DNA from: Ruminobacter sp.
Lineage (GTDB): Bacteria > Pseudomonadota > Gammaproteobacteria > Enterobacterales > Succinivibrionaceae
DNA: 64,000 bases
Reading direction: 5' to 3' (one strand)
Assembly: GCF_017940385.1 (NCBI RefSeq)
Contig: NZ_JAGAYS010000041.1
Part shown: piece by piece, positions 9,871-34,691 of the stretch
Position numbering within the stretch: position 1 is the first letter of the stretch
Layout: every line of letters starts with the position of its first letter
Notes under the pieces: generated by a model
Told to the model about the DNA's origin: nothing
Databases searched by the model: none
The model's input: the letters and a program-made list of their open reading frames with translations, nothing else
Made by a program: the position numbers and the translations under genes

Positions 9871-10290
9871 GTAATAAAAATCAATTATATTACTAATTAT
9901 GTGAGTTTGAGAAAGTTATCAAAAATAAATAATATTTTTGTTTTGGGTGTTTTGATGAAAAAATAGTCAATTAAAATCAAATAAAGTTATTTTAATTGTA
10001 TGAAAACAATTTCACTGATAGAGTATTAGGCCGTGATCGAACGGGTAAATGTCATAAACAGTTATGACGACTGGTAGTCAAATTTGAAATAATGATGCAT
10101 ATAAAAAGAGATTGTGCTCAAAATTTGACTTATTTGTTTATTTTTTTGGCTCGTTTTGTGGTTTACCATGGTAAATAAGCGCTCATGCGTCTTTCATTTG
10201 ATTTTAGAACCGTAAATCATAATAAAAATAAAAGCCAAATGGACAATTCTACATAATAACGAATGGTTTAAAGCCTGTAGGACAGTGAAT

Positions 10291-11475
10291 ATGAAAAAAG
10301 CATTATTATCCGTTATGGTTGCGGCCGTTGCCCTGGGTGGAAGCAGTGCTGCTTTTGCTTCAGGTATTGAGGGTACGCATCTTACTGTGTGGGTTAACGG
10401 CGATAAGTCGTATAAAGGAATCGAACAGGTCGGTGAAAAGTTTGAAAAGGACACCGGCATAAAGGTTATTGTGGAACATCCGGAACAGCCTGTCGTGAAA
10501 TTTCTGCAGCACGCGGCTTCAGGAAACGGCCCGGATTTGTTTATGTGGGCTCACGACCGCTTCGGTGAATGGGTTGAATTCGGCTTGCTGACTCCGATTG
10601 AACCTACTCCCGAAGAGCTGGAAAGGTTCCAGCCTGTGGCCTGGGACGCAATGAAGGTTAAGGATAAGTACTACGGCTTTCCTGTGTCTATAGAGGCAAT
10701 TGCACTTATATGTAATAAGGATCTCGTGCCTGAGGCTCCTAAGACGTTTGAAGAGTTCTTTGAACTGGACGATGAGCTGCAGAAGAGTGGAAAGCACGCT
10801 CTGGTGTGGGATTTTAATGACGGATACTTTACATATCCGATACTTTCAGCCAACGGCGGATACTCATTTAAGAAGAATGAAAAGGGTGAGTATGACGTAA
10901 CTACTACCGGTATAAATGATCCGGGTGCGGTTAAGGGGTTGGAGTACATAGTTAAATTAATTAGGGAAGATCATCTGCAGAAATGGCAGGAATTTCCTAA
11001 GATGGAAAAGAAGTTTATTGACGGTGACGTTGGCTGTGTAATAAACGGTGCATGGGGATGGGAAAGATACAGTAAGCTGAATTATTCCGTTAATCCGTTC
11101 CCTACACTTGACGGTAAGCAGGGAAGGCCTTTTGTGGGCGTGCTGGGCATGACCATCAACAGTGCTTCTCCTAACAAGGAAATGGCAAGAAAATTCCTTG
11201 TTGACTATCTGCTGACCGATGAAGGTCTGGAAAAGATGGATAACGACCGTCCGCTCGGTGCGGTTGCACTTAAGTCGTATCAGGCAAGGCTTGAGAAGGA
11301 TCCGAGAATTGCCGTGACGATGTACAATGCGGAGCACGGTGACATTATGCCTAACATACCGGAAATGAACAGATTCTGGAGTTCTCTGCAGACAGCGCTG
11401 AAAAATGCCACAACCGGGCGTCAGTCTGCAAAGAAGGCGTTGAAGATAGCTGAGGAACGTGTGCTGAAGAAGTAA
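10291..11475 (+). CDS. malE: Maltose/maltodextrin-binding periplasmic protein, paralog 1
   Basis: It has a signal peptide (MKKALLSVMVAAVALGGSSAAFA) and MalE-type blocks ([74 protein letters not shown]). ATG 10291 has AGGA 9 nt upstream. The ORF-track start GTG 10285 is less likely. Confidence 0.9.
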   Translation: MKKALLSVMVAAVALGGSSAAFASGIEGTHLTVWVNGDKSYKGIEQVGEKFEKDTGIKVIVEHPEQPVVKFLQHAASGNGPDLFMWAHDRFGEWVEFGLLTPIEPTPEELERFQPVAWDAMKVKDKYYGFPVSIEAIALICNKDLVPEAPKTFEEFFELDDELQKSGKHALVWDFNDGYFTYPILSANGGYSFKKNEKGEYDVTTTGINDPGAVKGLEYIVKLIREDHLQKWQEFPKMEKKFIDGDVGCVINGAWGWERYSKLNYSVNPFPTLDGKQGRPFVGVLGMTINSASPNKEMARKFLVDYLLTDEGLEKMDNDRPLGAVALKSYQARLEKDPRIAVTMYNAEHGDIMPNIPEMNRFWSSLQTALKNATTGRQSAKKALKIAEERVLKK

Positions 11476-11497
11476 TACGCAATGAGTTGAATGAAGT

Positions 11498-11530
11498 CCG
11501 CACCCGAATTGAGGCAGGTGCGGTCTTTTT
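11498..11530 (+). terminator. Intrinsic terminator after malE paralog 1
   Basis: The stem pairs ccgcacc (11498..11504) with ggtgcgg (11517..11523) and is followed by tcttttt. Confidence 0.65.
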
Positions 11531-11718
11531 GTGTGCTTTCATGCCGTGACCCGCATGGCTGAAACAGCAAATATTGCTCCGTATTTCGTTCATAATGAGA
11601 TACATGTTAAAAAAATGCAACTTTTTGATATTTAATTGCATGCATATGTTCTATCATACACATTGTTTAAATCGGTTTGAGGCCGATATTTTTAAGTAAT
11701 AAGTAAGGAAATAGACTA

Positions 11719-12900
11719 ATGAAAAAAACTATTTTAGCTACTGTTGTAGGCTTAGCTGCTTTTGGTTTCGCACAGGTTGCTTCTGCATCAGGTATTGAAG
11801 AAGGTCAGTTAACCATTTGGGTTAACGGTGATAAGTCATATGACGGTATTGCTAAGGTTGGTAAGAAGTTCGAAGAAGCTACCGGCGTTAAGGTAACCGT
11901 TGCTCACCCAGACCAGGTAGAAGTTAAGTTCCAGCAGAACGCAGCTTCAGGTAACGGTCCAGATATTTTCATGTGGGCACATGACCGTTACGGTGAATGG
12001 GTTAAGTCAGGTCTTTTAACCCCAATCGAACCAACCAAGGAAGAATTAAGCAAGTTCCAGGACGTTGCATGGAAGGCTATGACTGTAGACGGTAAGATTT
12101 ACGGTTACCCAGTATCTATCGAAGCTATTGCCTTAATCTGTAACAAGGATATCGTTCCAGAAGCTCCAAAGAGCTTTGAAGAATTCATTGCCCTTGACGA
12201 CAAGCTGAAGAAGGAAGGCAAGCGTGCAATTATGTGGGACTACAACAACGCATTCTTCAGTTACCCATTAATTTCTGCTAACGGCGGTTATGCATTCAAG
12301 AGAAACGCTGACGGCAGCTACGACGTTAAGGACTCAGGTGTTAACAATGACGGCGCTAAGGCCGGTGTTCAGTTCCTCGTTGATTTAATCAAGGGCGATC
12401 ACATGCAGAAGGGTGCTGACTACGGTATCATGGAATCAAGCTTCGTTAACGGTAAGGTTGCTTGTATCATCAACGGACCATGGTCATGGGGTCAGTACAC
12501 AAAGGTTAACTACAGTGTTAACCCAATCCCAACCCTTAAGGGCAACCCAGGTAAGCCATTCGTAGGTGTTCAGGGTATGACCATCAACCAGGCTTCTCCA
12601 AATAAGGACCTTGCTAAGGAATTCTTACTCAACTACCTCCTCACCGATGAAGGTCTTGATAAGATGAACAAGGACAAGCCATTAGGTGCTGCTGCTCTCA
12701 AGTCTTTCGAAGCTAAGCTTGAACAGGATCCAAGAATCAAGGTAACCATGAGCAACGCTAAGATTGGTGACCCAATGCCAAGCGTACCAGAAATGAACCG
12801 TTTCTGGAGTTCATTACAGACTGCTCTTAAGAATGCTACCACCGGTCGTCAGACCTTAGACGAAGCACTTAAGACTGCTGAAGATCGTATCGAAAAGTAA
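11719..12900 (+). CDS. malE: Maltose/maltodextrin-binding periplasmic protein, paralog 2 (first gene of the malEFGK unit)
   Basis: It has a signal peptide ([23 protein letters not shown]) and the same MalE blocks as paralog 1. By eye the two are roughly two-thirds identical. The SD AAGGAA lies 9 nt upstream. Its codon style (CCA, GGT, CGT, TTA) is shared with malFGK. Confidence 0.93.
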
Positions 12901-12920
12901 GATAATCTTTCATAAATTAA

Positions 12921-12945
12921 AGAAGCTCAGACATGAGCTTCTTTT
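12921..12945 (+). terminator. Intrinsic terminator or attenuating hairpin between malE-2 and malF
   Basis: A perfect 9-bp stem pairs agaagctca (12921..12929) with tgagcttct (12934..12942). The loop is 4 nt and ttt follows. Confidence 0.6.
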
Positions 12946-13062
12946 ATGAAAGGCTAGAATTAAAAGCTTTAATATGAAAATATTAAAGTTTTTATTTGTA
13001 GTAAAAATTTTTTTATTACAGTTTTACAAGCTAAATTTAGAATAAGTTATTAGGGTATTAGC

Positions 13063-14763
13063 ATGGATTCTTTCGCTTTTGAAAAAAGAGGTAAAACCTC
13101 TGGAGGTGGAGCGCCTGGCTTAATGATACTCAAAGGTTTACTATCAGCGATAGTATTACTCTTTGGTGTATTCATGATAAGCTCTATGTTTACTCATGGT
13201 CAGTACGCTTTCGCAATCTTGTTTACAATAGTCATTGCAGGTGGTCTGCTTGTGACATGGATGAAGGGAATGTATCCTCACAGATATATTTTCCCAAGTA
13301 TCGCGGGTATGGTTGTATTCATCATATTCCCTCTCGTATACACCGTGTACATTGCATTTACCAACTACTCTGCAAAGAACCTCTTCACTCTTGAAAGAGC
13401 TGAGAATTATTTCCTTTCTCAGACTTACAGAATTGAAGGCGGTGACTACCAGTTTAAGCTTTACGCTAAGGAAGGTAATAAGTACGTTATCGTACTTAAC
13501 AATCAGCCTACTATGTTAGCTGACGGTAATCCTTCTGAAGTTCGTACCTACGCATCTCCTGAAACCGTGTTCTTTGATAAGGATCAGATGGAGAAGCCTA
13601 GTAACAAGACTACCGCTTCAAAGACAGTAATTCATGTTACCAAGGTTGATAACAGCTATACCCAGGACATGGAAGACTGCGGTATCAAGTGTAAGGCTGC
13701 ATTCAGAGATTACCTGAAGTCAATCAAGATTAAGATCGACGCTCAGGAACTCACCTATACCGGTCTTAACACTTTCAGTGCCGTTAAGAACAGATTCGTT
13801 CGTCAGGATCAGGTAGTTCTCGGTAACCAGGAAACTTTACAGAATTCCCACATGCTCAAGGACGTATCAGATGATTCCTTAATCATCCCTGACATGAATG
13901 ACGGTTACTACAAGACCATTGACACCCAGACCGGTGAACCAGTCGGTGAAAGAATGGCTCCAGGTTTCCGTGTATACATCGGTTTCGAGCACTTCAAGAG
14001 AATTTTCAACGACCCAAGTATTTCTACTCCGTTCGTTAAGATTTTCATCTGGACCGTTTGTTTCGCTGCTTTAACAGTATTCATTACCTTAGCAATCGGT
14101 ATGGTTCTCGCTTGTCTCGTACAGTGGGAATTCTTAAAGGGCAGAGGTATTTACCGTTTAATCCTCATTCTCCCATACGCAGTACCGTCATTCATTTCAA
14201 TCCTCGTATTTAAGGGTTTGTTTAATGAAAACTTCGGTGAAATCAACCGTATTCTGGACTTCTTCCTCGGTTGGAGACCTGAATGGTACAACGAAGCCGG
14301 CTATGCTCGTGCAATGATTCTGCTCGTTAATGCATGGTTAGGTTATCCATACATGATGATTCTCTGTATGGGTCTGTTAAAGTCTATTCCTGATGATCTC
14401 TATGAAGCATCTGCAATGGACGGTTCAGGTCCTGTTCAGAACTTCATGAACATTACTCTTCCATTGTTAATGAAGCCATTAACTCCGTTACTTATCGCTT
14501 CATTCGCATTTAACTTCAACAACTTCGTGTTGATTATGCTGTTAACTAACGGTGGCCCTGACTTCTTACCTGAAGACGGTGTTGTAACCACTGCAGGTTC
14601 TACTGACTTGCTCGTGTCTTATACCTATCGTCTCGCATTCGAAGGTGGCGCAGGTGGTAATGACTACGGTCTGGCTTCCGCAATTGCAACCACTATCTTC
14701 ATCTTAGTTGGTGCATTATCTATAGTTAACTTAAAGATTTCCAAGATGGGAGCTAAGGACTAA
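13063..14763 (+). CDS. malF: Maltodextrin ABC transporter permease MalF
   Basis: It has multiple TM segments, a long periplasmic loop after TM3, and the EAA motif region ([23 protein letters not shown]). Confidence 0.9.
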
Positions 14764-14765
14764 TC

Positions 14766-15683
14766 ATGGCAATTGTACAACCTAAGTCGATTAAATATCG
14801 CATTTTGGCTACACACATTGTAATGTGCCTGTTTTTACTTGCTGTTCTGTTTCCGTTATACATGGTTGTGATGATTTCATTCCGTGAAGGTAACTTCGCA
14901 ACCAACGTATCAGACAGTTTCTATGACCTCTTCTTACCAAGAATGGATTCATTGACTCTGGATCACTGGAAACTTGCTTTAGGCATGTCATATGTTGATG
15001 AAGCCGGTGTTGAACACCTTCCTCCATTCCCTGTATTAAAGTGGCTTTGGAACTCAATCATCATTTCATTCTTCACCTCTGCGTTCATCGTACTGCTGTC
15101 AACCACCAGTGCGTATGCGTTTGCACGTCTGAACTTCAAGGGTAAGAATGCACTCTTAAACTGCATGCTGATTTTCCAGATGTTCCCTTCAGTGCTTGCA
15201 CTCGTTGCTATCTATGCATTGTTCGATAACATCGGTGAATACATTCCGTTTATCGGTCTTGATACCAGAGCAGGTCTGATTCTTTCTTATATGGGTGGTA
15301 TTGCCCTCCATATTTGGACTATCAAGGGTTACTTTGAAACCATTGATGCTTCACTGGAAGAAGCTGCCGCCATTGACGGTGCTACCCCATGGCAGGCATT
15401 CAGACTCGTACTGTTACCTCTGTCAGTACCAATTCTTGCAGTAGTATTCATCCTTGCATTTATCGGTACCATTACTGAAGTTCCAGTAGCAAGTATCCTC
15501 TTAAATGACGTAGATAATTACACCCTGGCCGTAGGTTCTCAGCAGTATCTTGCTTCTCAGAACAAGCTTTGGGGTGACTTCGCAGCAGCGGCTGTTATGT
15601 CTGGTCTTCCTATTACCGTCGTATTTATGTTAGCTCAGCGTTGGTTAGTAGGTGGTCTGACTGCCGGTGGTGTAAAGGGTTAA
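14766..15683 (+). CDS. malG: Maltodextrin ABC transporter permease MalG
   Basis: The EAA motif is [23 protein letters not shown]. It has six predicted TM segments and starts 2 nt after the malF stop. Confidence 0.9.
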
Positions 15684-15748
15684 TCGATATTTTACAATGC
15701 GGTGTTTAACGCACCGCATGTTATAAAAGAATTTTTATGGAGCTATAA

Positions 15749-16885
15749 ATGGCTGAAGTTACTTTAACAAACGTTCGTAAGAACTATAATCCAAGTTTAT
15801 TGAAAGATACCTTACGTAATATCAACCTTGATATTAAAGATGGTGAATTCATCGTGTTCGTTGGTCCGTCTGGTTGCGGTAAGTCTACCCTTCTGCGTAT
15901 GATTGCCGGTCTTGAAGACATCACCGACGGTGAATTAAAGATCGGTTCAAAGGTGATGAACGATGTTCCTCCTGTAGACCGCGGTGTAGGTATGGTGTTC
16001 CAGTCTTACGCACTTTATCCTCACATGGATGTTCGTCAGAACATGGAATTCGGTCTTAAGTTAAAGAAGTTCGACAAGGATACCATTGAAAAGCGTGTTA
16101 ACAACGCTGCTCAGATCCTCGGTCTCGAAGCTTTAATGGATCGTAAGCCAAAGGCTCTGTCAGGTGGTCAGCGTCAGCGTGTTGCTATCGGTCGTTCTAT
16201 CGTTCAGCAGCCTGACGTATTCCTCTTCGACGAACCTTTATCAAACCTCGATGCTGCTCTCCGTGTTAAGATGCGTATCGAAATTGCCAAGTTACATAAG
16301 GAATTAAATTCTACAATCATCTACGTAACTCACGACCAGGTTGAAGCTATGACCCTGGCTGACAAGATTGTAGTATTAAGTCCGTTAAAGGAATCTGCAG
16401 AAACCAACCTTGAACAGTTTGGTACTCCGCTTGAACTTTACCACAACCCAACCAACAAGTTCGTTGCAGGCTTCATCGGTTCACCTAAGATGAACTTCCT
16501 CAAGGGCCAGCTCATCGAAATCGGTGAAGAAACCTGTAAGGTTAAGTTAAATACCGGTGACGTTATCACTGCATGTGTTGACGCACGTCGCGCAAGCGTT
16601 GGTGACAAGGTTGAATTAGGTATTCGTCCTGAACACCTCGTTCCGGTTGAACATCCTGATTCAAAGAGCCGTCTGTCTGGTATGGTTCAGGTTGCAGAAC
16701 ACTTAGGTGCTGAAAGCTTTGTTTACCTTGATGTTGACGGTGAAGACTTTACCGTTAAAGCTGCTTCAGAAATCCCTGTTGATACCGGGGATTCTCTCGA
16801 AGTTGGTATCCCAGCTGAAGCTTGTTACCTTTTCGATTCTCAGGAAAAGGCATTCAAGAGAACCGCAAGATATAACAGAACTTAA
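15749..16885 (+). CDS. malK: Maltodextrin ABC transporter ATPase MalK (MsmK/UgpC type)
   Basis: It has Walker A (GPSGCGKST), the signature motif (LSGGQRQR), Walker B (FLFDEPLSNLD) and a C-terminal regulatory (TOBE-like) domain. Confidence 0.92.
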   Translation: MAEVTLTNVRKNYNPSLLKDTLRNINLDIKDGEFIVFVGPSGCGKSTLLRMIAGLEDITDGELKIGSKVMNDVPPVDRGVGMVFQSYALYPHMDVRQNMEFGLKLKKFDKDTIEKRVNNAAQILGLEALMDRKPKALSGGQRQRVAIGRSIVQQPDVFLFDEPLSNLDAALRVKMRIEIAKLHKELNSTIIYVTHDQVEAMTLADKIVVLSPLKESAETNLEQFGTPLELYHNPTNKFVAGFIGSPKMNFLKGQLIEIGEETCKVKLNTGDVITACVDARRASVGDKVELGIRPEHLVPVEHPDSKSRLSGMVQVAEHLGAESFVYLDVDGEDFTVKAASEIPVDTGDSLEVGIPAEACYLFDSQEKAFKRTARYNRT

Positions 16886-27197: not shown

Positions 27198-27401
27198 TCC
27201 GCCTTCCCGGTTGGTACAGGCCGCCGGGATGAAGTCATGAAGTCCGGGAGGCCGATAATACTCTCTTGTATTATCGGCCTCCTTGTGTTAGCTTTATCCA
27301 CGGCGTCTGGAAGTCGGGTACATGATTCTTTTTCGGGAAAGGAGCATGGCCGGCAGGTCGGCGGAGAGAGTTTTTTGAGGACTGATAATCGGAGAAAAAA
27401 G

Positions 27402-28181
27402 ATGTCAGACAACTACGGTTCAGAAAAATATGAATGTCTGAACAACATGGTGATTATTCTGGTGGATCCAAGCCATTACGGCAATATAGGATCGGCTTCG
27501 AGAGCAATGAAGACCATGGGATTATCGAAATTAAGAATTGTTTCATCAAACGGCAGTATTATTACCGATGAGGCTCTGGCTCTGTCAAAGGGTGCGGCTG
27601 ACGTCCTGAAAAGTGCCGAGGTTTTCTCCACACTTGATGAGGCTCTTGCCGACGTGACGTTTGTTGCCGGTACGTCTGCCAGACACCGCAGCATAGAACT
27701 TCCGCTTTATCAGCCGCGTGAGGCCGTGGAGAAGATACGTCCGCACCTGATGAACGGCATGAAGTGCGCCATCATGTTCGGCAGGGAGAGAACCGGGCTT
27801 ACGAACGAAGAACTGCAGCGCTGCGACATTCACATCAACATAGATGCCAATCCCGAATATTCATCACTGAATCTGGCAATGAGCGTGCAGGTGCTTTCCT
27901 ATGAACTGAGACAGGCATGTCTGCGTTCCGCAACTCAGGAACCTTCAGCTGATTTTGATGAGGGACTCCGTAAGCCGAAGCATTCGGATCTGGAGCAGTT
28001 CTACAGTTTCATTGAGAAGAATCTCTGCGACTGCGGATTCCTTAAAAAGAATCATAACGGCAGCGTTATGGGGCAGATAAGGCGTGTCTATGCCAAGGCG
28101 GACATGAGTGCCCATGAACTCAGAATCATATACGGAACCCTGGCATCAATGCTTAAGCACAGAAAGGACGGCGGAGAGTAA
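27402..28181 (+). CDS. trmJ: tRNA (cytidine/uridine-2'-O)-methyltransferase TrmJ (SpoU/TrmH family)
   Basis: [23 protein letters not shown] matches E. coli TrmJ ([22 protein letters not shown]). ATG 27402 has the SD GGAGAAAAAAG. The 55 codons upstream in the ORF track carry no such support. Confidence 0.88.
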   Translation: [259 protein letters not shown]

Positions 28182-28254
28182 CGCCGAAGCAGGCAGACCC
28201 GGTGCCGGTCTGACGGTGACGGATCATGGGGCTGCCGGCAGACCGGTTTTACGA

Positions 28255-28294
28255 AAATCCTGATGGTCAGGAGTGAGATCGTCAGGATTTTTTT
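28255..28294 (+). terminator. Intrinsic terminator after trmJ, with an alternative competing hairpin
   Basis: aatcctga (28255..28262) can pair with tcaggatt (28281..28288), which is followed by tttttttt. The same CCTGA can alternatively pair with the nearer TCAGG (28266..28270). Confidence 0.6.
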
Positions 28295-28456
28295 TGTCTG
28301 AAGTCGAAAGGAATCCGTAATTCAGCGGTATCTTTACCGGTAATATACACAAAACATGTTTTTGTTTTGTATAACAATAGAATACTTTAATATTATTGAC
28401 GTGATTCACGGATATAAGAAAAAGTGGTCATTTTTATAAGATAATTATAGTCAAAT

Positions 28457-28531
28457 ATCATGAAAAAGCTTTCATGATGTTTAAAATTTGTTAAAATTAA
28501 CAAAATATTAAATCAGGAATAAGTCCTGATT
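28457..28531 (+). promoter_or_regulatory. Cluster of three perfect inverted repeats upstream of the giant surface-protein gene
   Basis: The first is 28457..28478 (atcatgaaa-aagc-tttcatgat, 9-4-9). The second is 28488..28503 (ttgttaa-aa-ttaacaa, 7-2-7). The third is 28511..28531 (aatcagga-ataag-tcctgatt, an 8-bp stem) followed by ttgtt. All lie 40-115 nt upstream of ATG 28573. Confidence 0.4.
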
Positions 28532-28572
28532 TTGTTAAACCTTTCTTTTTTCCATTTCCAGAGTGAATCCAT

Positions 28573-31500
28573 ATGAGTAACAGAATGTTAAGACTCAACG
28601 GCCTTTCCCTTGCCGTTGGTTTTGCAGTTGCCATCCCGGGTTTTGTCGTGTCTGATGATGCTCAGGCCGCCGGTGTCATAGCTGCAACCCATATATATCA
28701 TAATCACATGCCTAATTTCTGGCCTTACTACAATACCGCCGATTACGAAAAGGCTGCCGTCGGTGATCCGATAAGATATGCCTATGATGGTCAGGTATAC
28801 AGAATTAAGGAAAACCCTCCTGCAGACTACACTTATTTTCTGCCTAAGAAGGGGACTCCGATGCCTCACGACAATCTGCAGCAGTATTATGACAGGGATG
28901 CAAAGCGCAACGCCTATACTTCATGGCCTGCTCAGACCGCCCGTGCCAACAGCGGTTCCCATCCGTTAAGCCAGACACAGGTAACAATGTCTGCTGCCGT
29001 AATCAATAACGTGCAGAGCTTTGCGGAACTTAATATTTTTGACTTCTTCAGGGAAGGCTGGTCTTCCGACTGGAAGTCAACCGTGGGTTCTCTTAAAACA
29101 ACCAACGGCTTTAATGCCCTGGAACCGATTCATTTTACCGGTCACCATTCAATGGGACCTCTTGTCGGCCCAAGATATTTCCTCAAGGATCTTATTTATC
29201 AGAACGTAACCCTGCAGCGTGATTACTTCCTCGGTGCGGACAAGTTCAGATCTTCGAAGGGCTTCTTCCCGACAGAGCTCGGTTTCTCCGAAAGACTTAT
29301 CCCAACCCTTACCAAGCTCGGCATTGAATGGTCTGTTGTGGGTAACAACCATTTCTCAAGAACCCTGAAGGACTACCCGTACAATTATCAGGATCCTTCA
29401 TATGATACCCTGGTATCACCTCCGAACAGGGCAGATCTGCAGAATACATATGAAGCCGGTGAATGGGTAACGGTCGGTATGGCTCATGAAAAGCAGCAGA
29501 TTGTGAACAAGTTCCCGTTCTGCGCCATTCCGCACTGGGTTCAGTATGTTGATCCGGTAACCGGTAAGGCTGATAAGATAGCCGCCATTCCGGTGGATCA
29601 GAACGGTTCATGGCTTGAAGGCTGGGAAGGTGAGGCAAACGCGCACACTGAAATCGAACGTTCAAACTACGTTGCAGACGCAAACGGCAGAACCATGTAC
29701 TACGTAATTGCCCATGACGGTGATAACGGTGAAGGACGTGCGGGTTCTATTTCCACCTGGCTGGCTTCAGGCAATGAATACAGTGCCGACGGAGTTGTCG
29801 GTATGGGTGTGGAGGAATATCTCAAGGCCTATCCGATCCCTGAATCAGACATTCAGCACATTCAGGACGGATCATGGGTTGATACCCGTGACTCCTCTTC
29901 CGATCCTGACTGGTATCACTGGCATATTCCGATGGGTGTATGGAAAGGACAGCTCAGTGATTTCAACAAGGCTTTAGGTACTGAATTCGAAATGCCGGTG
30001 AATTTTGCCGGAACCCCTATGGGACATGCCGTTTCCATGGAATACGGTTACCATTATCTGGAAAGAAACTTTGCCCTGCTTCAGGCAGCGGAAAACTACG
30101 CCGTCACCGCAGAGCAGATCTGGCTTGATGACCATCCTAACTACTGGTCTCCTTCAACAGATGCCGAAAAGCAGGTTACCTACGAGGGTAACCAGCTTAA
30201 TCCTTACATGATGTCATATCCTGTAAAGGGTGATGAGCAGAATGATTACAGGGGCGGCGCAAATCCTGCCGAACTCGGCTGGTACTTCCTGATTTCATCA
30301 ATTGATTCAGGTTTTGGTTATTATGATGAAAATACCGACGACAACGTAAAGCCTTCCCTCGGCTTTAATCAGTCACTGTACTTTACCGAACCTTATGTCA
30401 CCAAAAACGTGGCAAAGGACAAAACCGGACCTTCAATGTGGTGGGTTCAGCGCTATCCTACAAATCCAGGTTCCGCAAACAGCGGCAAGGCTGAAGGCTG
30501 GACTCCTATGTATGCCGACAATACCTTTGCCGTTTATACCTATGCCTATGACGTAAGCGGCATAAAGGATGTCAAGGTTTACGTCCGTGCCCACAAGAAC
30601 AAGAGCATGGGTCCTACCGACATCGCTCCGCGCGTATATGATCCAAAGGCCCTGGGAATCAGCGGTGATGCCGTAGGTGAATGGAAAGTCTATGACACCA
30701 AGGTGAGGGATCTGACCCCTGACATGAATGGCGTGGCTTGGCAGGATAATGAGGTAAGTCTCAATTATCAGGTAATACCGGCCAGGAAGATAGCAAGCAC
30801 CTATTATGCCTACATCAGTGATTTCAGGGACCAGCTGGTTGACTACTACATGGAAGCAACCGACTCCCGCGGTAACGTAACCAGAAGTGAAATCAACCAC
30901 ACCTACGTCGGTGCCGGCAGATACAATCTGGTTGACGGTGCCTACATTGAAGACGTTAACGGTGAAATCGAAGGTTCACACATGTTCTTTACCGACGGTT
31001 CCGTCGTGCTCACCGACAGCGTAACCGTTTACGCCAGAGCAGGTGATGAATCAGTTACTTCCGTATACCTTGAACACAAGGACAAGGGTACTTCAGACTG
31101 GAACGGCGTGGAAATGAAGAAGGTCGGGGACACCACCTATTTCAAGACCACCGTGACCTATACCCGTGATGCCACCTGTGCCGATATCAGGGTCAGGGAA
31201 AACGGCGGTTCTTACTATAACGGTAACTCCGGCACCTGTCTCAGCAAGGGAACCTACGTCATCGGAAAGGACGGCAGCATAACTGAAGGTGCTCCTACCG
31301 ATATCGTTACCCCTGTTACCTTCTACTTCAAGCCGGCATCATCACTTACCAGTGTCTGCGTTCACTACCGCGGTACTCCTCAGACCGGTGACAAGGGCTG
31401 GACTGCCGTACCGGGCGCCGCCATGACAGCACAGAAGAACGGCTGGTGGAGTTACACCGATACCGAAAGCTTCGGTGCCGAAATCAGCGGACTGGAATTC

Positions 31501-33816
31501 CTGTTCAACGACTGCGGAAACAACTGGTATAAGAGTTCAAGCAACGGAAACTTCGTACTCAATTCAGTAGGCGACGTATGGGTTGACGGTACCAAAATGG
31601 GAACCGGCACTCCTGCAGAACTTGATACCTCAAACAAAGCTCCGACTGCGGTAATCACAGCTTCATCACTGACCATCATACCGGGTGAAAGCGTGACTCT
31701 GGATGCTTCAGGTTCAACTGACTCCGACGGTTCCATTGTTTCCTACAAGTGGAACACCGGTGCGACTTCCTCAAAGATTACGGTAACTCCTGAAGAAACC
31801 ACTGTTTACAGCGTAACCGTAACCGACAATGACGGTGCAACCGCCACCAAGTCCGTAACCGTTACCGTTGAGGAAGAGACATGTGCCGTGGATCCGTTCT
31901 GGTATCTGCAGACTGATTTCCTGGCAACAGTTCAGGACGGAACAGTTAGCCTTACCGATAATACCTATTTCGGTGAAAGGAAGAACTGCTCATCTCCAGT
32001 AACCTCAACCGGAGTCAAAGTGTCAGAACAGTGTCTGGAGACCTTCGGTTCAGGCCCTGCCTGCGGTCTTGTATACAGCTGGGATTTCGGAGACGGTTCA
32101 GTTTCTTCAGAAACCTTCAGCGTTTCACATACATACCAGCAGTCCGGCACCTATAACGTTGTGCTTAAGATCAGCAGAAACGGTTCCGCCACGGACGTTC
32201 ATACCGTATCAAAGAACATCACCGTTGATGTTCCGCAGATCATCATGCCTGTGGCTAAAATCAGTGCTGACAAAACTGAGATAAACAAGGGGGAAACTCT
32301 TGTTCTCAGCGGTGCCTCTTCAACCGGTAATGAACTGAGCTATCTCTGGAGTACCGGAGAAACCACCTCTTCAATTACCGTTCAGCCTGAGGCAACCACC
32401 GTTTATACTCTTACCGTAACTGATAAGAACGGCAACACTTCGGAAAAGGCCAGCGTGACCATAACCGTGAAGGACGTGGTGAATCATGCTCCGGAGGTGT
32501 CCGTAGTGACATCTGCCGATAACGTGAACAGAACCGTTAAGAGCGGTACCGCCGTAACTCTTGATGCTTCCGGTTCAGCAGATGAGGATCATGATCAGTT
32601 ATCCTACCTCTGGTCAAACGGCAAGACCGACGCCGTAATTACCGAAAACCTTTACGAAACCACCACGTTTACCGTTAAGGTAAGTGACGGCAAGGCTGAA
32701 TCAACAGGTGCCGTAACAATTACCGTGGTAAATGACAATGCGGCTCCTATTGCCAGAATCAGTATAAATCAGACCGGGGCCGTAGAAGGCACCGAAATGA
32801 TCTTCGACGGTTCAAGTTCAACTGATGACAAGGCCGTAAAGAAATATGAATGGGCGGTTAACGGTATGAAGTACGGTACCAACAGCAGCTTCACCCATAA
32901 GTTTGAAACTGCAGGTACATACGTTGTGACCCTTACCGTTTACGATGAAGAAGGCCTTTCAGGTTCACAGGCGGTAACCGTTTCCATTGTTGCTGCCGAG
33001 GAACCTGTTGTTGAATTCACCGTTTCCGGAAGCACGAATATCAACATCAATGAAACGGCCGTGTTTACCACTAACCTGGTGAATGCCGAAGCCTCATCAT
33101 ACTCATGGTACATTGACGGTGAAAAGGTTAACGGTTCTCAGAGCTCACTGAGCCACCAGTTTACCGTAGCCGGTACCCACGAGGTTAAGGTTGTCGTTAC
33201 CGACAAAAAGAACGTGCAGCATCAGGCAGTAAAGCAGGTAACCGTGAACAATCCGTACGTAAGTACTCCGGTAAAGGTTGCAAGCGGAAGTCAGAATCAG
33301 ACCAAAAATAACGAAATCCGTTTCGTGCAGTCAGATTCCGATGACAGAACCCCGGTTTCAATTGAAAGCCGTAAGATCATGAGCTTTGTGATTTCAAACA
33401 TTTCTCATGAGGCTACCGTCCAGGTTGTAAGACTTCCTGACCAGAACGTAAAGACCTCCGGCGAACGCGTATGTCAGATTTTCAGCGGCTATGTTGTTGA
33501 CTGCGACGCAACCGACGGTGTGGACTACAATCAGTTTTCCAACGATGCAACCGTTGATCTCAAGTTCATTCAGGCAGGCAGCTATGAAGTTAGAATCAAG
33601 GGTAAGAACCTTGCCGAAAATGACTTCAGCGGCTATATACCTGTAAGCGTTACCGGAGAAGATAACGATGAAGGTTCAGATGAGGAAGAAGCTGATTCAA
33701 CTCCTTCCGACAATACCGGCAGTTCTTCCGGCAAGAAGGGCGGCGGTGCCATCGGACTGTTCGATCTCATCCTTATGGCCGGTGCAGGTTTCTTCGTGAG
33801 AAGACGCAGAAAGTAA
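28573..33816 (+). CDS. Giant secreted or surface-anchored protein: GH57/GH119-like alpha-glucan hydrolase module, beta-rich middle region, six PKD-type repeats and a GlyGly-CTERM tail
   Basis: It starts with a signal peptide (MSNRMLRLNGLSLAVGFAVAIPGFVVSDDAQA). Four motifs resemble GH57 conserved regions: HIYHNHMP (I), ALEPIHFTGHH (II), FFPTELGFSERLIPTLTKLGIEW (III, candidate nucleophile Glu) and VIAHDGDNGEG (IV, candidate acid/base Asp). Six repeats of about 80-120 aa carry PKD signatures (for example YSWDFGDGS...HTYQQSGTYNVVLKI). An acidic linker leads to the C-terminal GGGAIGLFDLILMAGAGFFVRRRRK. Confidence 0.8.
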   Translation: MSNRMLRLNGLSLAVGFAVAIPGFVVSDDAQAAGVIAATHIYHNHMPNFWPYYNTADYEKAAVGDPIRYAYDGQVYRIKENPPADYTYFLPKKGTPMPHDNLQQYYDRDAKRNAYTSWPAQTARANSGSHPLSQTQVTMSAAVINNVQSFAELNIFDFFREGWSSDWKSTVGSLKTTNGFNALEPIHFTGHHSMGPLVGPRYFLKDLIYQNVTLQRDYFLGADKFRSSKGFFPTELGFSERLIPTLTKLGIEWSVVGNNHFSRTLKDYPYNYQDPSYDTLVSPPNRADLQNTYEAGEWVTVGMAHEKQQIVNKFPFCAIPHWVQYVDPVTGKADKIAAIPVDQNGSWLEGWEGEANAHTEIERSNYVADANGRTMYYVIAHDGDNGEGRAGSISTWLASGNEYSADGVVGMGVEEYLKAYPIPESDIQHIQDGSWVDTRDSSSDPDWYHWHIPMGVWKGQLSDFNKALGTEFEMPVNFAGTPMGHAVSMEYGYHYLERNFALLQAAENYAVTAEQIWLDDHPNYWSPSTDAEKQVTYEGNQLNPYMMSYPVKGDEQNDYRGGANPAELGWYFLISSIDSGFGYYDENTDDNVKPSLGFNQSLYFTEPYVTKNVAKDKTGPSMWWVQRYPTNPGSANSGKAEGWTPMYADNTFAVYTYAYDVSGIKDVKVYVRAHKNKSMGPTDIAPRVYDPKALGISGDAVGEWKVYDTKVRDLTPDMNGVAWQDNEVSLNYQVIPARKIASTYYAYISDFRDQLVDYYMEATDSRGNVTRSEINHTYVGAGRYNLVDGAYIEDVNGEIEGSHMFFTDGSVVLTDSVTVYARAGDESVTSVYLEHKDKGTSDWNGVEMKKVGDTTYFKTTVTYTRDATCADIRVRENGGSYYNGNSGTCLSKGTYVIGKDGSITEGAPTDIVTPVTFYFKPASSLTSVCVHYRGTPQTGDKGWTAVPGAAMTAQKNGWWSYTDTESFGAEISGLEFLFNDCGNNWYKSSSNGNFVLNSVGDVWVDGTKMGTGTPAELDTSNKAPTAVITASSLTIIPGESVTLDASGSTDSDGSIVSYKWNTGATSSKITVTPEETTVYSVTVTDNDGATATKSVTVTVEEETCAVDPFWYLQTDFLATVQDGTVSLTDNTYFGERKNCSSPVTSTGVKVSEQCLETFGSGPACGLVYSWDFGDGSVSSETFSVSHTYQQSGTYNVVLKISRNGSATDVHTVSKNITVDVPQIIMPVAKISADKTEINKGETLVLSGASSTGNELSYLWSTGETTSSITVQPEATTVYTLTVTDKNGNTSEKASVTITVKDVVNHAPEVSVVTSADNVNRTVKSGTAVTLDASGSADEDHDQLSYLWSNGKTDAVITENLYETTTFTVKVSDGKAESTGAVTITVVNDNAAPIARISINQTGAVEGTEMIFDGSSSTDDKAVKKYEWAVNGMKYGTNSSFTHKFETAGTYVVTLTVYDEEGLSGSQAVTVSIVAAEEPVVEFTVSGSTNININETAVFTTNLVNAEASSYSWYIDGEKVNGSQSSLSHQFTVAGTHEVKVVVTDKKNVQHQAVKQVTVNNPYVSTPVKVASGSQNQTKNNEIRFVQSDSDDRTPVSIESRKIMSFVISNISHEATVQVVRLPDQNVKTSGERVCQIFSGYVVDCDATDGVDYNQFSNDATVDLKFIQAGSYEVRIKGKNLAENDFSGYIPVSVTGEDNDEGSDEEEADSTPSDNTGSSSGKKGGGAIGLFDLILMAGAGFFVRRRRK
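31636..33250 (+). repeat. Array of six PKD/Ig-like domain repeats inside the giant CDS
   Basis: The repeats begin APTAVITASSL, TCAVDPFWY (with WDFGDG), PVAKISADKTE, NHAPEVSVVTS, NAAPIARISIN and EPVVEFTVSGS. Each ends in a V-T-V/I beta-strand motif. Confidence 0.7.
33739..33813 (+). other. GlyGly-CTERM sorting signal (rhombosortase substrate type)
   Basis: It consists of GGG, a hydrophobic helix (AIGLFDLILMAGAGFFV) and the basic tail RRRRK at the extreme C-terminus. An acidic Ser/Gly-rich linker precedes it. Confidence 0.7.
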
Positions 33817-33845
33817 GATTATATTATTAGACTTAAGGTGATTAA

Positions 33846-33881
33846 AGGCGGAACCCGGGAACTGAAGGGCTCCGCCTTTTT
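33846..33881 (+). terminator. Intrinsic terminator after the giant CDS
   Basis: The stem pairs aggcgga with tccgcct around an 18-nt loop. tttt follows. Confidence 0.7.
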
Positions 33882-33952
33882 AGTTGATTTTTACCATGAA
33901 TGAATTTATCATAGGTGTAAGCCGTTGCTAACAGAAAGGATGGTATTTAATT

Positions 33953-34180
33953 ATGAGATATCATTACAGGGTTCTGGGAATAGACTGTCCGATGTGCGCA
34001 CTTGGTCTTTCCGGAATGCTCAGGCGGATTAAGGATTTTCAGTCGGTTAACCTGAACATAATGACCCATGATCTGATTATATATACCTGGCTGGAACAGA
34101 ATGAGCTTGATGCCGTTCTGGGCAGTAATGCGATATCGGTTCACGGACAGCTAGAGTACAGACTGATAAGCGCTTCATAA
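33953..34180 (+). CDS. Small HMA (heavy-metal-associated, CopZ-like) domain protein
   Basis: The 75-aa product begins MRYHYRVLGIDCPMCALGLSGMLRRIKDFQSVNLNI, which fits the HMA pattern V-x-G-[MI]-x-C-x-x-C-A followed by a beta-alpha-beta topology. Confidence 0.6.
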   Translation: MRYHYRVLGIDCPMCALGLSGMLRRIKDFQSVNLNIMTHDLIIYTWLEQNELDAVLGSNAISVHGQLEYRLISAS

Positions 34181-34223: not shown

Positions 34224-34691
34224 ATGACAGACGTAAACAAGAATATTAATGAGTGCTTTACCCTGCACGACGCCAAGGCCGAGTGTCTTGACAAGCTTAA
34301 AAAGGCAAAGGTAAGAATGTCAAAGCAGCGTCTTGAGCTGCTGGATCTGCTTTTTTCCGGAACATTCAACTGTACCAAGGAACTTTACTATGAAGCCCAG
34401 TCAAAAAATCCTGAACTGGGAATGTCAACAGTGTACCGCTTCCTCAAGGTTCTGTATGACGTGGGAGTAATATCCAACAACAAACTGCTGGACGTGAACT
34501 GCTCCAACTGTAATTTCAAGCTGGCTGCCTTAAGGGATCACGAGGGGCAGGAGTTAAGGGCCGACGGGCTGGATCTCCAGGAACTCTTAAGACTGGGAAT
34601 GGTGGTCAAGGGGCTGATTAAGTCAGATGAAAAAATTGACGTAAAGATGCAGGATGACTCCGTCTATATTTCCGTTCTTAACGAAAAATAG
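34224..34691 (+). CDS. Atypical Fur-family transcriptional regulator (winged helix; the canonical His-rich metal sites are absent)
   Basis: Residues ~30-85 (RMSKQRLELLDLLFSGTFNCTKELYYEAQSKNPELGMSTVYRFLKVLYDVGVI) match the Fur/Zur/PerR DNA-binding domain pattern (R-x-T-x-QR...ATVYR-x-L). The C-terminal half has only one CxxC (C93/C96) and no HHxH-type motif. Confidence 0.6.
   Translation: MTDVNKNINECFTLHDAKAECLDKLKKAKVRMSKQRLELLDLLFSGTFNCTKELYYEAQSKNPELGMSTVYRFLKVLYDVGVISNNKLLDVNCSNCNFKLAALRDHEGQELRADGLDLQELLRLGMVVKGLIKSDEKIDVKMQDDSVYISVLNEK

What the first reader, a model, noticed from the sequence alone, without database searches (positions are those of the whole stretch)
28573..33816. A 1747-aa secreted GH57/GH119-like enzyme with six PKD repeats and a sorting tail: candidate cell-surface starch-processing machine
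The N-terminal ~450 aa carry motifs in the order and spacing of GH57 conserved regions: HNHMP, LEPIHFTGHH, FFPTELGFS and AHDGDNGEG. GH57 enzymes are mostly cytoplasmic or archaeal/thermophile proteins of 500-1000 aa. Here the module follows a signal peptide. After it come about 550 aa of uncharacterised beta-rich sequence (possible CBMs), six PKD-type repeats, another ~170-aa unknown domain, an acidic linker and a GlyGly-CTERM anchor. Together with the highly codon-optimised maltodextrin ABC operon 12 kb away, this suggests an outward-facing amylase/pullulanase-like enzyme that feeds dextrins to MalE. I do not recognise this architecture as a described enzyme.
Basis: partly seen in the sequence, partly recalled or inferred. 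Interest (0 to 1): 0.65.

Follow-up and report, generated by a model that had tools for sequence, protein, structure and literature searches.

The report
Surface-tagged GH119 amylase of Ruminobacter
This gene encodes a very large secreted starch-degrading enzyme of the small, little-studied GH119 family in a rumen starch specialist (Ruminobacter); it is a real, transcribed gene, but a new member of a known family rather than a new kind of enzyme.

Summary
The 1747-aa ORF (28573-33816, +) is real and intact, and rumen metatranscriptome contigs cover it end to end. The window comes from a Ruminobacter species.

The N-terminal catalytic unit is about 750 aa, not about 450. It is 50-60% identical to the Archangiaceae, Paenibacillus and Cohnella proteins that a CAZyme survey calls GH119.

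A deep-alignment AlphaFold model (pLDDT 95) matches only GH57 structures at the top. A family profile places E235 on the GH57 nucleophile and, weakly, D382 on the proton donor.

After the catalytic unit come:
- a conserved unassigned domain,
- a CBM25 starch-binding module,
- six PKD domains,
- a lineage-specific domain,
- an acidic linker,
- a GlyGly-CTERM-type tail.

The window's own tail scores below the model cutoff, but 6 of 10 orthologous tails pass it.

The malE-malE-malFGK operon 12 kb away is very strongly represented in the same metatranscriptomes.

Surface anchoring and substrate specificity remain inferred. The GH119 + CBM25 + PKD layout is common in Gammaproteobacteria. Only the anchored C-terminus is specific to a subclade of Succinivibrionaceae.

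The parts
28573..33816 (+). Complete gene for the 1747-aa GH119-family enzyme (precursor; about 188 kDa after signal-peptide removal, pI 4.7)
   Evidence: ORF; mass; orthologues of 1745-1765 aa in Ruminobacter and Succinivibrionaceae; covered end to end by rumen metatranscriptome contigs
28573..28668 (+). Sec-type signal peptide, aa 1-32 (basic n-region, hydrophobic core, AQA|A); no lipobox Cys
   Evidence: Read from the sequence. In homologues the conserved region begins right after an equivalent A-x-A. Inferred; no predictor was run
28669..30927 (+). GH119 catalytic unit, aa 33-785: (beta/alpha)7-type barrel (aa ~34-450), helical bundle (aa ~458-611), beta-sandwich (aa ~620-780)
   Evidence: 50-79% identity over the whole unit to more than 120 homologues; model with pLDDT 95.2 and pTM 0.95; top Foldseek matches all GH57; Pfam GH57 22.1 bits
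29275..29277 (+). Codon of E235, predicted catalytic nucleophile (FFPTE235LGFS)
   Evidence: Invariant in 120/120 and 64/64 relatives and in alignment A2; aligns on Glu123 of T. litoralis 4-alpha-glucanotransferase 1k1w; sits just after a short strand in the model
29716..29718 (+). Codon of D382, predicted general acid/base (AHD382GDN)
   Evidence: 63/64 in divergent relatives; aligns on Asp214 of 1k1w in a weak second stretch; lies at the C-terminal end of strand 343-349 of the model
30928..31287 (+). Conserved unassigned beta-rich domain, aa 786-905
   Evidence: No Pfam hit above cutoff; found at the same position in 72 of the fetched relatives
31288..31617 (+). CBM25 starch-binding module, aa ~906-1015
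   Evidence: Pfam CBM_25 32.8 bits against a 27.3 cutoff, and CBM26 26.8 bits, on the isolated segment; relatives' equivalent columns hit solved CBM25 structures 2laa, 2lab and 2c3v
31624..33258 (+). Six PKD-type Ig-like domains, aa ~1018-1562; the second (aa 1100-1226) has a 4-Cys insert before a half-PKD
   Evidence: Pfam PKD_4, PKD and K319L-like_PKD on each segment; Cys positions 1104, 1139, 1154 and 1164
33238..33672 (+). Lineage-specific domain of unknown fold, aa 1556-1700
   Evidence: No Pfam or NCBIfam hit; found only in orthologues that also carry the C-terminal tail (P0001-P0010, P0016)
33661..33732 (+). Acidic, Ser/Gly-rich linker, aa ~1697-1720
   Evidence: Sequence GEDNDEGSDEEEADSTPSDNTGSSSG
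33733..33813 (+). GlyGly-CTERM-type tripartite sorting tail, aa 1721-1747 (KKGGGA - hydrophobic helix - RRRRK)
   Evidence: Own score for TIGR03501 is 7.3 bits against a 15.5 cutoff; 6 of 10 orthologous tails score 15.7-23.4; tail conserved across the subclade; curation rule in PMC3237569
28253..28292 (+). Terminator-like hairpin ending the upstream trmJ gene, which isolates the GH119 gene as its own transcription unit
   Evidence: 16-pair stem followed by a T-run; RNA contig depth drops here
28433..28487 (+). Two overlapping promoter-like sites in the AT-rich 390-bp intergenic region
   Evidence: Consensus scan only, no more sites than in shuffles; RNA contigs begin at 28521-28570
33864..33890 (+). 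Terminator-like hairpin plus T-run after the stop codon
   Evidence: RNA contigs end at 33785-33837 and depth falls 3-10 fold
10285..16885 (+). malE-malE-malF-malG-malK maltodextrin ABC transporter operon (functional partner, not physically linked)
   Evidence: NCBIfam equivalog hits for MalE (520 and 579 bits), MalF (643) and MalG (494); MalK 519 bits, just under its 568 cutoff; very high RNA contig depth

Best explanation
The gene encodes a secreted, retaining alpha-glucan hydrolase of CAZy family GH119, most likely an endo-acting alpha-amylase. GH119 is the small sister family of GH57.

Shown here:
- The 750-aa N-terminal unit is a GH119 catalytic module with a GH57-type (beta/alpha)7 barrel.
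- It has an invariant Glu (E235) at the GH57 nucleophile position and an Asp (D382) at the proton-donor position.
- It is followed by a CBM25 starch-binding module, six PKD domains and a GlyGly-CTERM-type tail.
- The gene is a separate transcription unit and rumen metatranscriptome contigs cover it end to end.

Inferred pathway:
1. The signal peptide takes the protein through Sec.
2. The C-terminal helix holds it in the inner membrane until a rhombosortase cleaves the GlyGly-CTERM and lipid-modifies the new C-terminus, as shown for VesB in Vibrio cholerae.
3. Type II secretion then moves it across the outer membrane, where it stays tethered.
4. The PKD array and the lineage-specific domain act as a stalk of roughly 700 aa. 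This holds the CBM25 and the catalytic head out towards starch granules.
5. The maltodextrins released near the cell enter the periplasm and are taken up by the highly expressed MalE/MalFGK transporter.
For: Family membership:
- 50-60% identity over 75-100% of aa 1-1020 to Archangiaceae, Corallococcus, Paenibacillus and Cohnella proteins. These are the taxa in which a dbCAN-based survey reports GH119 (PMC12093494).
- Some of these proteins are named alpha-amylase by UniProt, for example Stigmatella Q08T95.

Catalytic machinery:
- The motifs are invariant.
- Profile A2 hits the GH57 structures 7e1y (E 2.2e-9) and 1k1w (E 5.5e-5), with E235 on Glu123 and D382 on Asp214.
- All 10 divergent relatives tested pass Pfam GH57 at 28-57 bits.

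Fold: the model has pLDDT 95.2, and the 13 best Foldseek matches are GH57 enzymes at E 7e-15 to 5e-6.

Starch targeting: CBM25.

Sorting: the tail is tripartite and conserved, and 6 of 10 orthologous tails pass TIGR03501. This satisfies the published curation rule for sub-threshold tails (PMC3237569). The rhombosortase, type II secretion and surface-retention precedent is in PMC6219818 and PMC13393428.

Organism and expression:
- The organism is Ruminobacter, a starch and maltose specialist.
- Synteny is conserved in R. amylophilus.
- RNA contig depth over the gene is 3-10 times that of its flanks in three runs.
- The mal operon is very highly represented in the same runs.
Against: - No enzyme assay exists for this protein or for any Gram-negative GH119. 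According to PMC6037648, only the Bacillus circulans enzyme had been characterised.
- The founding GH119 sequence was not on hand, so membership rests on identity to proteins that others classify as GH119.
- The D382-Asp214 alignment stretch is weak on its own (2.9 bits).
- Model coordinates could not be read, so the distance between the two carboxylates was not measured.
- The window's own tail fails the GlyGly-CTERM cutoff (7.3 against 15.5 bits) and scores higher on generic LPXTG-type anchor models.
- Rhombosortase, type II secretion and maltoporin genes were not looked for; none is in the window.
- A review citing Anderson 1995 says that R. amylophilus binds starch at the surface and hydrolyses it with intracellular amylase. 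That fits a periplasmic location better.
- Contig depth is a poor measure of expression, and the RNA contigs are 90-99% identical, so they come from related strains.
Confidence: 0.6

Rival explanations
1. The enzyme is the same but sits in a different place. The C-terminal helix is a plain inner-membrane anchor, or the protein is released into the periplasm. The amylase would then act on dextrins or starch chains already imported across the outer membrane, not on the cell surface.
For: The window's own tail fails the GlyGly-CTERM model (7.3 bits). Generic anchor models score higher. No rhombosortase or type II secretion genes are in evidence. A review citing Anderson 1995 describes surface binding followed by hydrolysis inside the cell in R. 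amylophilus.
Against: Six of ten orthologous tails pass TIGR03501. A stalk of about 700 aa made of PKD domains plus a CBM25 for granular starch makes little sense inside a periplasm about 20 nm wide (inference). Divergent relatives in Bacteroidota carry type IX secretion Por_Secre_tail domains, so surface display is a recurrent theme in this superfamily.
Confidence: 0.2
2. The fold and location are the same but the specificity differs. The enzyme would be an amylopullulanase, a pullulan hydrolase, a maltose- or maltooligosaccharide-forming exo-amylase, or a transglycosylase rather than a classical endo-alpha-amylase.
For: GH57 holds many specificities (PMC6037648). The best structural matches are an amylopullulanase (7e1y) and an exo-type maltose-forming amylase (4cmr). 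R. amylophilus uses pullulan as well as starch. Only one GH119 enzyme has been characterised.
Against: The one characterised GH119 member is an alpha-amylase. The catalytic unit is about 58% identical to the Paenibacillus-type clade, with all conserved regions identical, which usually conserves specificity (inference).
Confidence: 0.17
3. The protein is a non-catalytic starch adhesin in which the GH119-like module only binds glucan.
For: It has a large surface-protein architecture with CBM and PKD domains. 'Like' proteins that lack catalytic residues exist in GH57.
Against: Both candidate catalytic residues and all conserved regions are intact and invariant across the family.
Confidence: 0.03

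Closest known systems
CAZy family GH119; founding member is the alpha-amylase IgtZ of Bacillus (Niallia) circulans AM7 (Watanabe 2006; in silico analysis by Janecek and Kuchtova 2012)
   Same: The catalytic unit of about 750 aa is 50-60% identical to the Paenibacillus, Cohnella and Archangiaceae clade. The conserved regions HNHMP, HFTGHH, FFPTELGFS and AHDGDN are identical. The Glu-to-Asp spacing in the Paenibacillus-type clade (142 residues) matches the Glu231/Asp373 pair I recall from the 2012 paper; in this protein it is 147 residues (E235-D382). The module sits at the N-terminus behind a signal peptide and is followed by starch-binding CBMs.
   Different: The host is a Gram-negative, anaerobic rumen bacterium. 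FN3 and CBM20 modules are replaced by an unassigned domain, one CBM25 and six PKD domains. A lineage-specific domain and a GlyGly-CTERM-type membrane tail replace the free C-terminus.
GH57 alpha-glucan-active enzymes with solved structures (S. marinus amylopullulanase 7e1y, Pyrococcus maltose-forming amylase 4cmr, T. litoralis 4-alpha-glucanotransferase 1k1w, A. aeolicus amylopullulanase 9iht)
   Same: (beta/alpha)7 barrel followed by a helical bundle. The Glu after strand 4 and the Asp at the end of strand 7 align on the GH57 nucleophile and proton donor. By homology the mechanism is retaining.
   Different: Identity is only about 10%. Pfam GH57 is borderline (20.4 bits whole protein, 22.1 bits isolated). 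Region 1 reads HMP instead of HQP. Large insertions put 147 residues between the catalytic Glu and Asp, against about 91-96 in GH57. The protein is extracellular and mesophilic rather than mostly cytoplasmic or thermophilic.
VesB and other GlyGly-CTERM/rhombosortase substrates of Vibrio cholerae
   Same: Signal peptide plus a C-terminal Gly-rich motif, hydrophobic helix and basic cluster. The host belongs to Aeromonadales, close to lineages that use this system.
   Different: The cargo is a 185-kDa glycoside hydrolase rather than a protease or nuclease. The window's own tail is below the HMM cutoff. No rhombosortase has been shown for this genome.
GH119 + CBM25 + PKD proteins of Vibrio, Agarivorans, Aliagarivorans, Psychromonas, Pseudaeromonas and Succinimonas (annotated 'PKD domain-containing protein')
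   Same: The domain order is the same through the PKD array, with 53-75% identity over aa 1-1020.
   Different: Those proteins end in repeated domains of about 100 aa (Sde0182_C-like, '...NDxxLTWxL') and have no membrane tail. The Ruminobacter subclade replaced these with the aa 1556-1700 domain, a linker and the anchor.

Membership tests
GH119 | Significant sequence similarity of the catalytic module to accepted GH119 members (CAZy families are defined by sequence) | tested here: met
   50-60% identity over about 750 aa to Archangiaceae, Corallococcus, Paenibacillus and Cohnella proteins. PMC12093494 reports GH119 in exactly these taxa. This is indirect: the founding IgtZ sequence and the dbCAN GH119 model were not available here.
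GH119 | Conserved sequence regions with the catalytic Glu (nucleophile) and Asp (proton donor) shared with GH57 | tested here: met
   E235 and D382 are invariant or nearly so and align on Glu123 and Asp214 of 1k1w.
GH119 | (beta/alpha)7-barrel catalytic domain | tested here: met
   The pLDDT-95 model has GH57, and then GH38, (beta/alpha)7 enzymes as its best structural matches. It is a prediction only; the PDB copy holds no GH119 structure.
GH119 | Alpha-amylase (alpha-1,4-glucan hydrolase) activity | not testable with these tools
   Needs an enzyme assay.
GH57 | Pfam PF03065 at or above the gathering score | tested here: inconclusive
   The whole protein scores 20.4 bits, below the 21.2 cutoff. 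The isolated catalytic segment scores 22.1 bits. Divergent relatives score 28-57 bits. CAZy keeps GH119 separate from GH57.
GH57 | Region 1 motif H-Q-P | tested here: not met
   Here, and in the tight clade, it reads HNHMP. Divergent relatives have WH.HQP.
GlyGly-CTERM sorting domain (TIGR03501) | HMM score at or above the trusted cutoff of 15.5 bits | tested here: not met
   7.3 bits for the window's own tail.
GlyGly-CTERM sorting domain (TIGR03501) | [quoted passage not shown] | tested here: met
   The architecture is read from the sequence. Six of ten orthologous tails score 15.7-23.4 bits. The rule is stated in PMC3237569.
GlyGly-CTERM sorting domain (TIGR03501) | A rhombosortase is encoded in the same genome | not tested
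   None in the 64-kb window.
CBM25 | Pfam PF03423 at or above the gathering score | tested here: met
   32.8 bits against a 27.3 cutoff on aa 900-1022. It was not reported in the whole-protein scan.
PKD domain | Pfam PKD-type models at or above the gathering score | tested here: met
   PKD_4 scores 134 bits over 6 stretches, and each of the six segments hits individually.

The most novel reading that the evidence does not exclude
This protein could be the main cell-bound or extracellular alpha-amylase of Ruminobacter. It may even be the source of the roughly 92-kDa extracellular amylase purified from 'Bacteroides amylophilus' in the 1970s (recalled from memory, not checked): the GH119 unit alone is 85 kDa, and 98 kDa with the next domain. 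It could also be the first glycoside hydrolase shown to be lipid-tethered to a Gram-negative surface through the GlyGly-CTERM/rhombosortase route. That would make it a tractable model for the structurally unsolved GH119 family.
Probability: 0.25. Interest if true: 0.55.

Novelty: new member of a known kind. Interest (0 to 1): 0.35.

Why it matters
GH119 is one of only three or four alpha-amylase families. According to the papers read here it had one characterised enzyme as of 2018, and the PDB copy searched here holds no GH119 structure.

This work shows that the classical rumen starch specialists Ruminobacter and Succinimonas carry a conserved GH119 gene. The Ruminobacter gene is transcribed, and its product is built like a surface-displayed enzyme.

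Standard annotation hides the function. Relatives are named 'PKD domain-containing protein', 'chitodextrinase', 'chitinase' or even 'microbial collagenase', because neither Pfam nor NCBIfam has a model for the catalytic module.

The protein would be a reasonable target for the first GH119 structure, for understanding starch capture in grain-fed ruminants, and for testing whether GlyGly-CTERM sorting carries large glycoside hydrolases. It does not reveal a new enzyme class or mechanism.

Tried and rejected
- Searching aa 1-1020 against PDB sequences (phmmer), and then a profile of 11 close homologues, found nothing relevant. Only the profile with 77 diverse relatives reached GH57.
- The first AlphaFold run, with the shallow 11-sequence alignment, gave pLDDT 51 and was discarded.
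- Model coordinates are not exposed, so the E235-D382 distance and the superposition on GH57 ligand complexes could not be computed.
- The founding GH119 sequence (IgtZ) was not found by name among the hits or in the cluster look-ups. Janecek 2014 and Anderson 1995 are not held in the paper library. The IgtZ residue numbers and the 92-kDa amylase therefore rest on memory.
- A regular-expression scan of the window for other GlyGly-type tails found only a false positive in MalF, and it also missed the GH119 tail itself, so it says nothing either way.
- A database search with the tail alone was considered and dropped. A 30-aa profile cannot reach significance against 5.8 billion sequences.
- LPXTG or NPXTG anchoring (22-23 bits on the isolated tail) was rejected. 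The match covers only the hydrophobic and basic part, there is no LPXTG motif, and the host is Gram-negative.
- Horizontal acquisition was considered unlikely. Synteny with queA-tgt-secDF-trmJ and the Fur-family gene, iscS, pepB and ndk is conserved in R. amylophilus and largely in Succinimonas, and GC content is unremarkable.
Full report
**Observation.** The ORF at 28573..33816 (+) is real, uninterrupted and 1747 aa long. On the whole protein, Pfam finds six PKD-type stretches. It also finds a GH57 match (20.4 bits against a 21.2 cutoff) and a CBM26 match (20.4 against 28.1), both just under their cutoffs. NCBIfam finds only PKD-containing and tail-type partial matches.

**Organism and context.**
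- The same protein at 98% identity is in a Ruminobacter MAG (RUG10948). It is 83% identical in Ruminobacter amylophilus DSM 1361, about 73% in Succinimonas amylolytica, and 61-71% in Succinivibrionaceae MAGs.
- Both named species are classical rumen starch degraders. R. amylophilus grows only on starch and maltose.
- The neighbours are housekeeping genes: queA, tgt, secD, secF, a TPR protein and trmJ upstream; a Fur-family regulator, a CoA-disulfide-reductase-like protein, iscS, pepB and ndk downstream.
- This order is kept in R. amylophilus and largely in Succinimonas. GC content is unremarkable. The gene is therefore an old chromosomal resident, not an island.
- A strong terminator-like hairpin follows trmJ (28253-28292). 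An AT-rich spacer of 390 bp precedes the start codon, and a weaker hairpin with a T-run follows the stop (33864-33880).

**Family.**
- A search with aa 1-1020 returned 307 proteins. The best 120 are 50-97% identical over 75-100% of the query.
- Outside Succinivibrionaceae they come from Vibrio, Agarivorans, Aliagarivorans, Psychromonas, Pseudaeromonas, Corallincola, Thalassomonas, Acanthopleuribacter, Duganella, Niveibacterium and Chitinimonas. They also come from Paenibacillus, Cohnella, and the myxobacteria Stigmatella, Cystobacter, Archangium, Hyalangium, Vitiosangium and Corallococcus.
- Many carry CBM25, CBM20, CBM26 and FN3 modules. A few are called alpha-amylase by UniProt, for example Stigmatella aurantiaca Q08T95 and Cystobacter A0A0H4NYZ6.
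- A dbCAN-based survey of myxobacteria states that GH119 occurs in all Archangiaceae and in Corallococcus, with close homologues in Cohnella and Paenibacillus (PMC12093494). That is the same taxon set, so this clade is what CAZy and dbCAN call GH119.
[quoted passage not shown] As of 2018 its only characterised enzyme was the Bacillus circulans alpha-amylase (PMC6037648 and PMC10647339).
- All 120 listed homologues keep HNHMP, F.GHH, FPTELGFS and AHDGDN unchanged.
- In the Paenibacillus-type proteins the Glu and the first Asp are 142 residues apart, for example E231/D373 in P0100. This matches the Glu231/Asp373 pair that I recall from Janecek and Kuchtova 2012. That recollection could not be checked because the paper is not held.

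**Link to GH57.**
- Neither the protein nor a profile of 11 close homologues (alignment A1) matched any solved structure. The PDB copy therefore holds no GH119 structure, and GH57 is beyond the reach of a narrow profile.
- An exhaustive profile search of 1.84 billion representatives found 463 relatives. Alongside the tight clade (over 1000 bits), there are hundreds of divergent proteins (130-350 bits). These match profile positions ~60-420 and ~525-750, that is, the same two-part unit.
- In 64 of these, at 23-33% identity, the Glu of FP.E..FS is 64/64. HDGDN has D 63/64, G 63/64, D 60/64 (plus 3 Glu) and N 63/64. Several have WH.HQP in place of HNHMP, the GH57-type region 1.
- Ten of them were scanned and all pass Pfam GH57 at 28-57 bits. 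Several carry CBM26, CBM25 or CBM53, and some carry type IX secretion tails.
- The isolated catalytic segment of the Ruminobacter protein itself scores 22.1 bits, just over the cutoff.
- A profile of the query plus 77 relatives (alignment A2) hits the GH57 amylopullulanase 7e1y (E 2.2e-9). Region 1 and the Glu region align there.
- The same profile hits T. litoralis 4-alpha-glucanotransferase 1k1w (E 5.5e-5). In 1k1w the family Glu falls on residue 123 (WLTE123RVW).
- A second, individually weak stretch puts the first Asp of HDGDN on Asp214 (HDD214GEKF). I recall these two residues as the published nucleophile and proton donor of that enzyme. PMC6037648 confirms only the general rule of a Glu at strand 4 and an Asp at strand 7.

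**Structure.**
- With the deep alignment, AlphaFold2 gives mean pLDDT 95.2 and pTM 0.95 for aa 34-790. The earlier shallow-alignment run, at pLDDT 51, was discarded.
- The secondary-structure string shows an alternating strand-helix barrel region (aa ~34-450). It is followed by a long helical bundle (aa ~458-611) and a beta-sandwich (aa ~620-780).
- E235 follows a short strand, and D382 ends the strand YYVIAHD.
- Foldseek against the PDB ranks 13 GH57 chains first. In order they are the S. marinus amylopullulanase, the Pyrococcus maltose-forming amylase, the T. litoralis glucanotransferase, the Thermus, Thermococcus and Pyrococcus branching enzymes, the A. aeolicus amylopullulanase and T. maritima AmyC. 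E-values run from 7e-15 to 5e-6, with probability 1.00.
- GH38 mannosidases come next. From general knowledge they share the seven-stranded barrel.
- TM-scores are modest (0.3-0.5) because of the large insertions and extra domains.
- I could not read the coordinates, so the catalytic geometry was not measured.

**The rest of the protein.**
- aa 786-905 is a conserved domain with no Pfam match. It sits at the same position in 72 of the fetched relatives.
- aa 906-1015 is a CBM25 (32.8 bits against a 27.3 cutoff; CBM26 26.8).
- aa ~1018-1562 are six PKD-type domains. The second is a half-domain preceded by an insert with four Cys.
- aa 1556-1700 has no match in Pfam or NCBIfam. It occurs only in those Succinivibrionaceae orthologues that also have the tail.
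- An acidic Ser/Gly linker and the tail KKGGGAIGLFDLILMAGAGFFVRRRRK follow.
- Relatives in Succinimonas, Vibrio, Agarivorans and similar genera end instead in two to four copies of a domain of about 100 aa, with no membrane tail.

**The tail.**
- The window's tail scores only 7.3 bits on the GlyGly-CTERM model (cutoff 15.5). It scores higher on generic LPXTG-type anchor models, which here see only the helix and the basic cluster.
- The tails of ten orthologues were scored separately. Six pass TIGR03501 (15.7-23.4 bits), with secondary hits to GlyGly-CTERM protein families (SVAGG, MprA tail).
[quoted passage not shown] On that rule this is a GlyGly-CTERM.
- In V. cholerae such tails are cleaved by rhombosortase. 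The cargo is exported by type II secretion and kept on the surface (PMC6219818 and PMC13393428).
- Whether Ruminobacter has a rhombosortase was not tested.

**Expression.**
- The gene sequence is found in many gut metagenomes and in bovine and sheep gut metatranscriptomes.
- In three RNA runs, contigs at 90-99% identity cover the whole gene. Word depths are about 13, 8 and 46 over the gene, against 0.5-4, 0-3 and 14-16 over trmJ, and 0-0.9, 0-3 and about 14 downstream.
- Contigs begin at 28521-28570 and end at 33785-33837, which is consistent with a monocistronic mRNA.
- The mal operon is far more abundant in the same runs. The second malE has depths of roughly 190-1675, malFG 50-510 and malK 96-1340.
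- Its products are equivalog-level MalE (two copies), MalF and MalG, with MalK just below its cutoff.
- Contig depth is a crude measure, and conserved genes can collect contigs from related species.

**Interpretation.**
- The best-supported reading is a Sec-exported GH119 retaining alpha-glucanase, most likely an alpha-amylase. It carries a CBM25 and a long PKD stalk.
- It is probably tethered to the cell surface through GlyGly-CTERM processing and supplies maltodextrins to the MalEFGK system.
- Identity and fold are shown. Activity, specificity, sorting route and the link to MalE are inferred.
- The main rivals are a periplasmic or inner-membrane location, which an older biochemical model of R. 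amylophilus would favour, and a specificity other than endo-amylase. The two closest structures are an amylopullulanase and an exo-maltose-forming amylase.

**Novelty.**
- This is a new member of a known family. The catalytic module is ordinary GH119, and the GH119 + CBM25 + PKD layout is widespread in Gammaproteobacteria.
- Only the anchored C-terminus (aa 1556-1747) is a lineage-specific variant.
- The interest lies in the host, in the evidence of transcription, in the lack of any GH119 structure or second characterised enzyme, and in the fact that general annotation hides the function. Relatives are named PKD protein, chitodextrinase, chitinase or collagenase.

Noticed in passing
window 10285-11475 and 11719-12900: Two tandem malE paralogues head the mal operon, both at NCBIfam equivalog level (520 and 579 bits). 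In three rumen metatranscriptomes the second copy has roughly 5-25 times the contig depth of the first (about 190-1675 against 35-230). This suggests divided roles, for example different dextrin lengths.
   Followed up: partly
proteins P0132-P0265 (not in the window): Hundreds of divergent relatives (23-33% identity) share the whole two-part catalytic unit and bridge GH119 to GH57. All 10 tested pass Pfam GH57. Many carry CBM26, CBM25 or CBM53, and some carry type IX secretion Por_Secre_tail domains. The same enzyme superfamily therefore appears to be surface-displayed through different sorting systems in different phyla.
   Followed up: partly
window 33953-34180 (+): An unlisted 75-aa ORF (MRYHYRVLGIDCPMCALGL...) has a CxxC motif that resembles heavy-metal-associated domains. 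It lies between the GH119 terminator and the Fur-family regulator gene (34224-34691) and may form a small metal-sensing unit with it.
   Followed up: no
window 27237-28181 (+): The trmJ ORF as listed has an N-terminal extension of about 67 aa with a hydrophobic stretch that the TrmJ models do not cover (the match begins at aa 68). The true start is probably an internal Met near aa 56.
   Followed up: no
window 31870-32070 (aa 1100-1165): The second PKD unit is preceded by an insert of about 65 aa with four cysteines (C1104, C1139, C1154, C1164) that matches no family. Only the C-terminal half of the PKD model aligns after it.
   Followed up: no
relatives P0060, P0087, P0271 and others: Public names for GH119 proteins are inconsistent and often wrong: 'Microbial collagenase', 'chitodextrinase', 'Chitinase', 'PKD domain-containing protein', 'fibronectin type III domain-containing protein'. 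Neither Pfam nor NCBIfam has a model for the GH119 catalytic module.
   Followed up: partly
window 7544-9397 (-): A DUF3413 + sulfatase-family membrane protein (of the type seen in phosphoethanolamine or sulfatase-like transferases) lies just upstream of the mal operon on the opposite strand. No link to starch use is evident.
   Followed up: no
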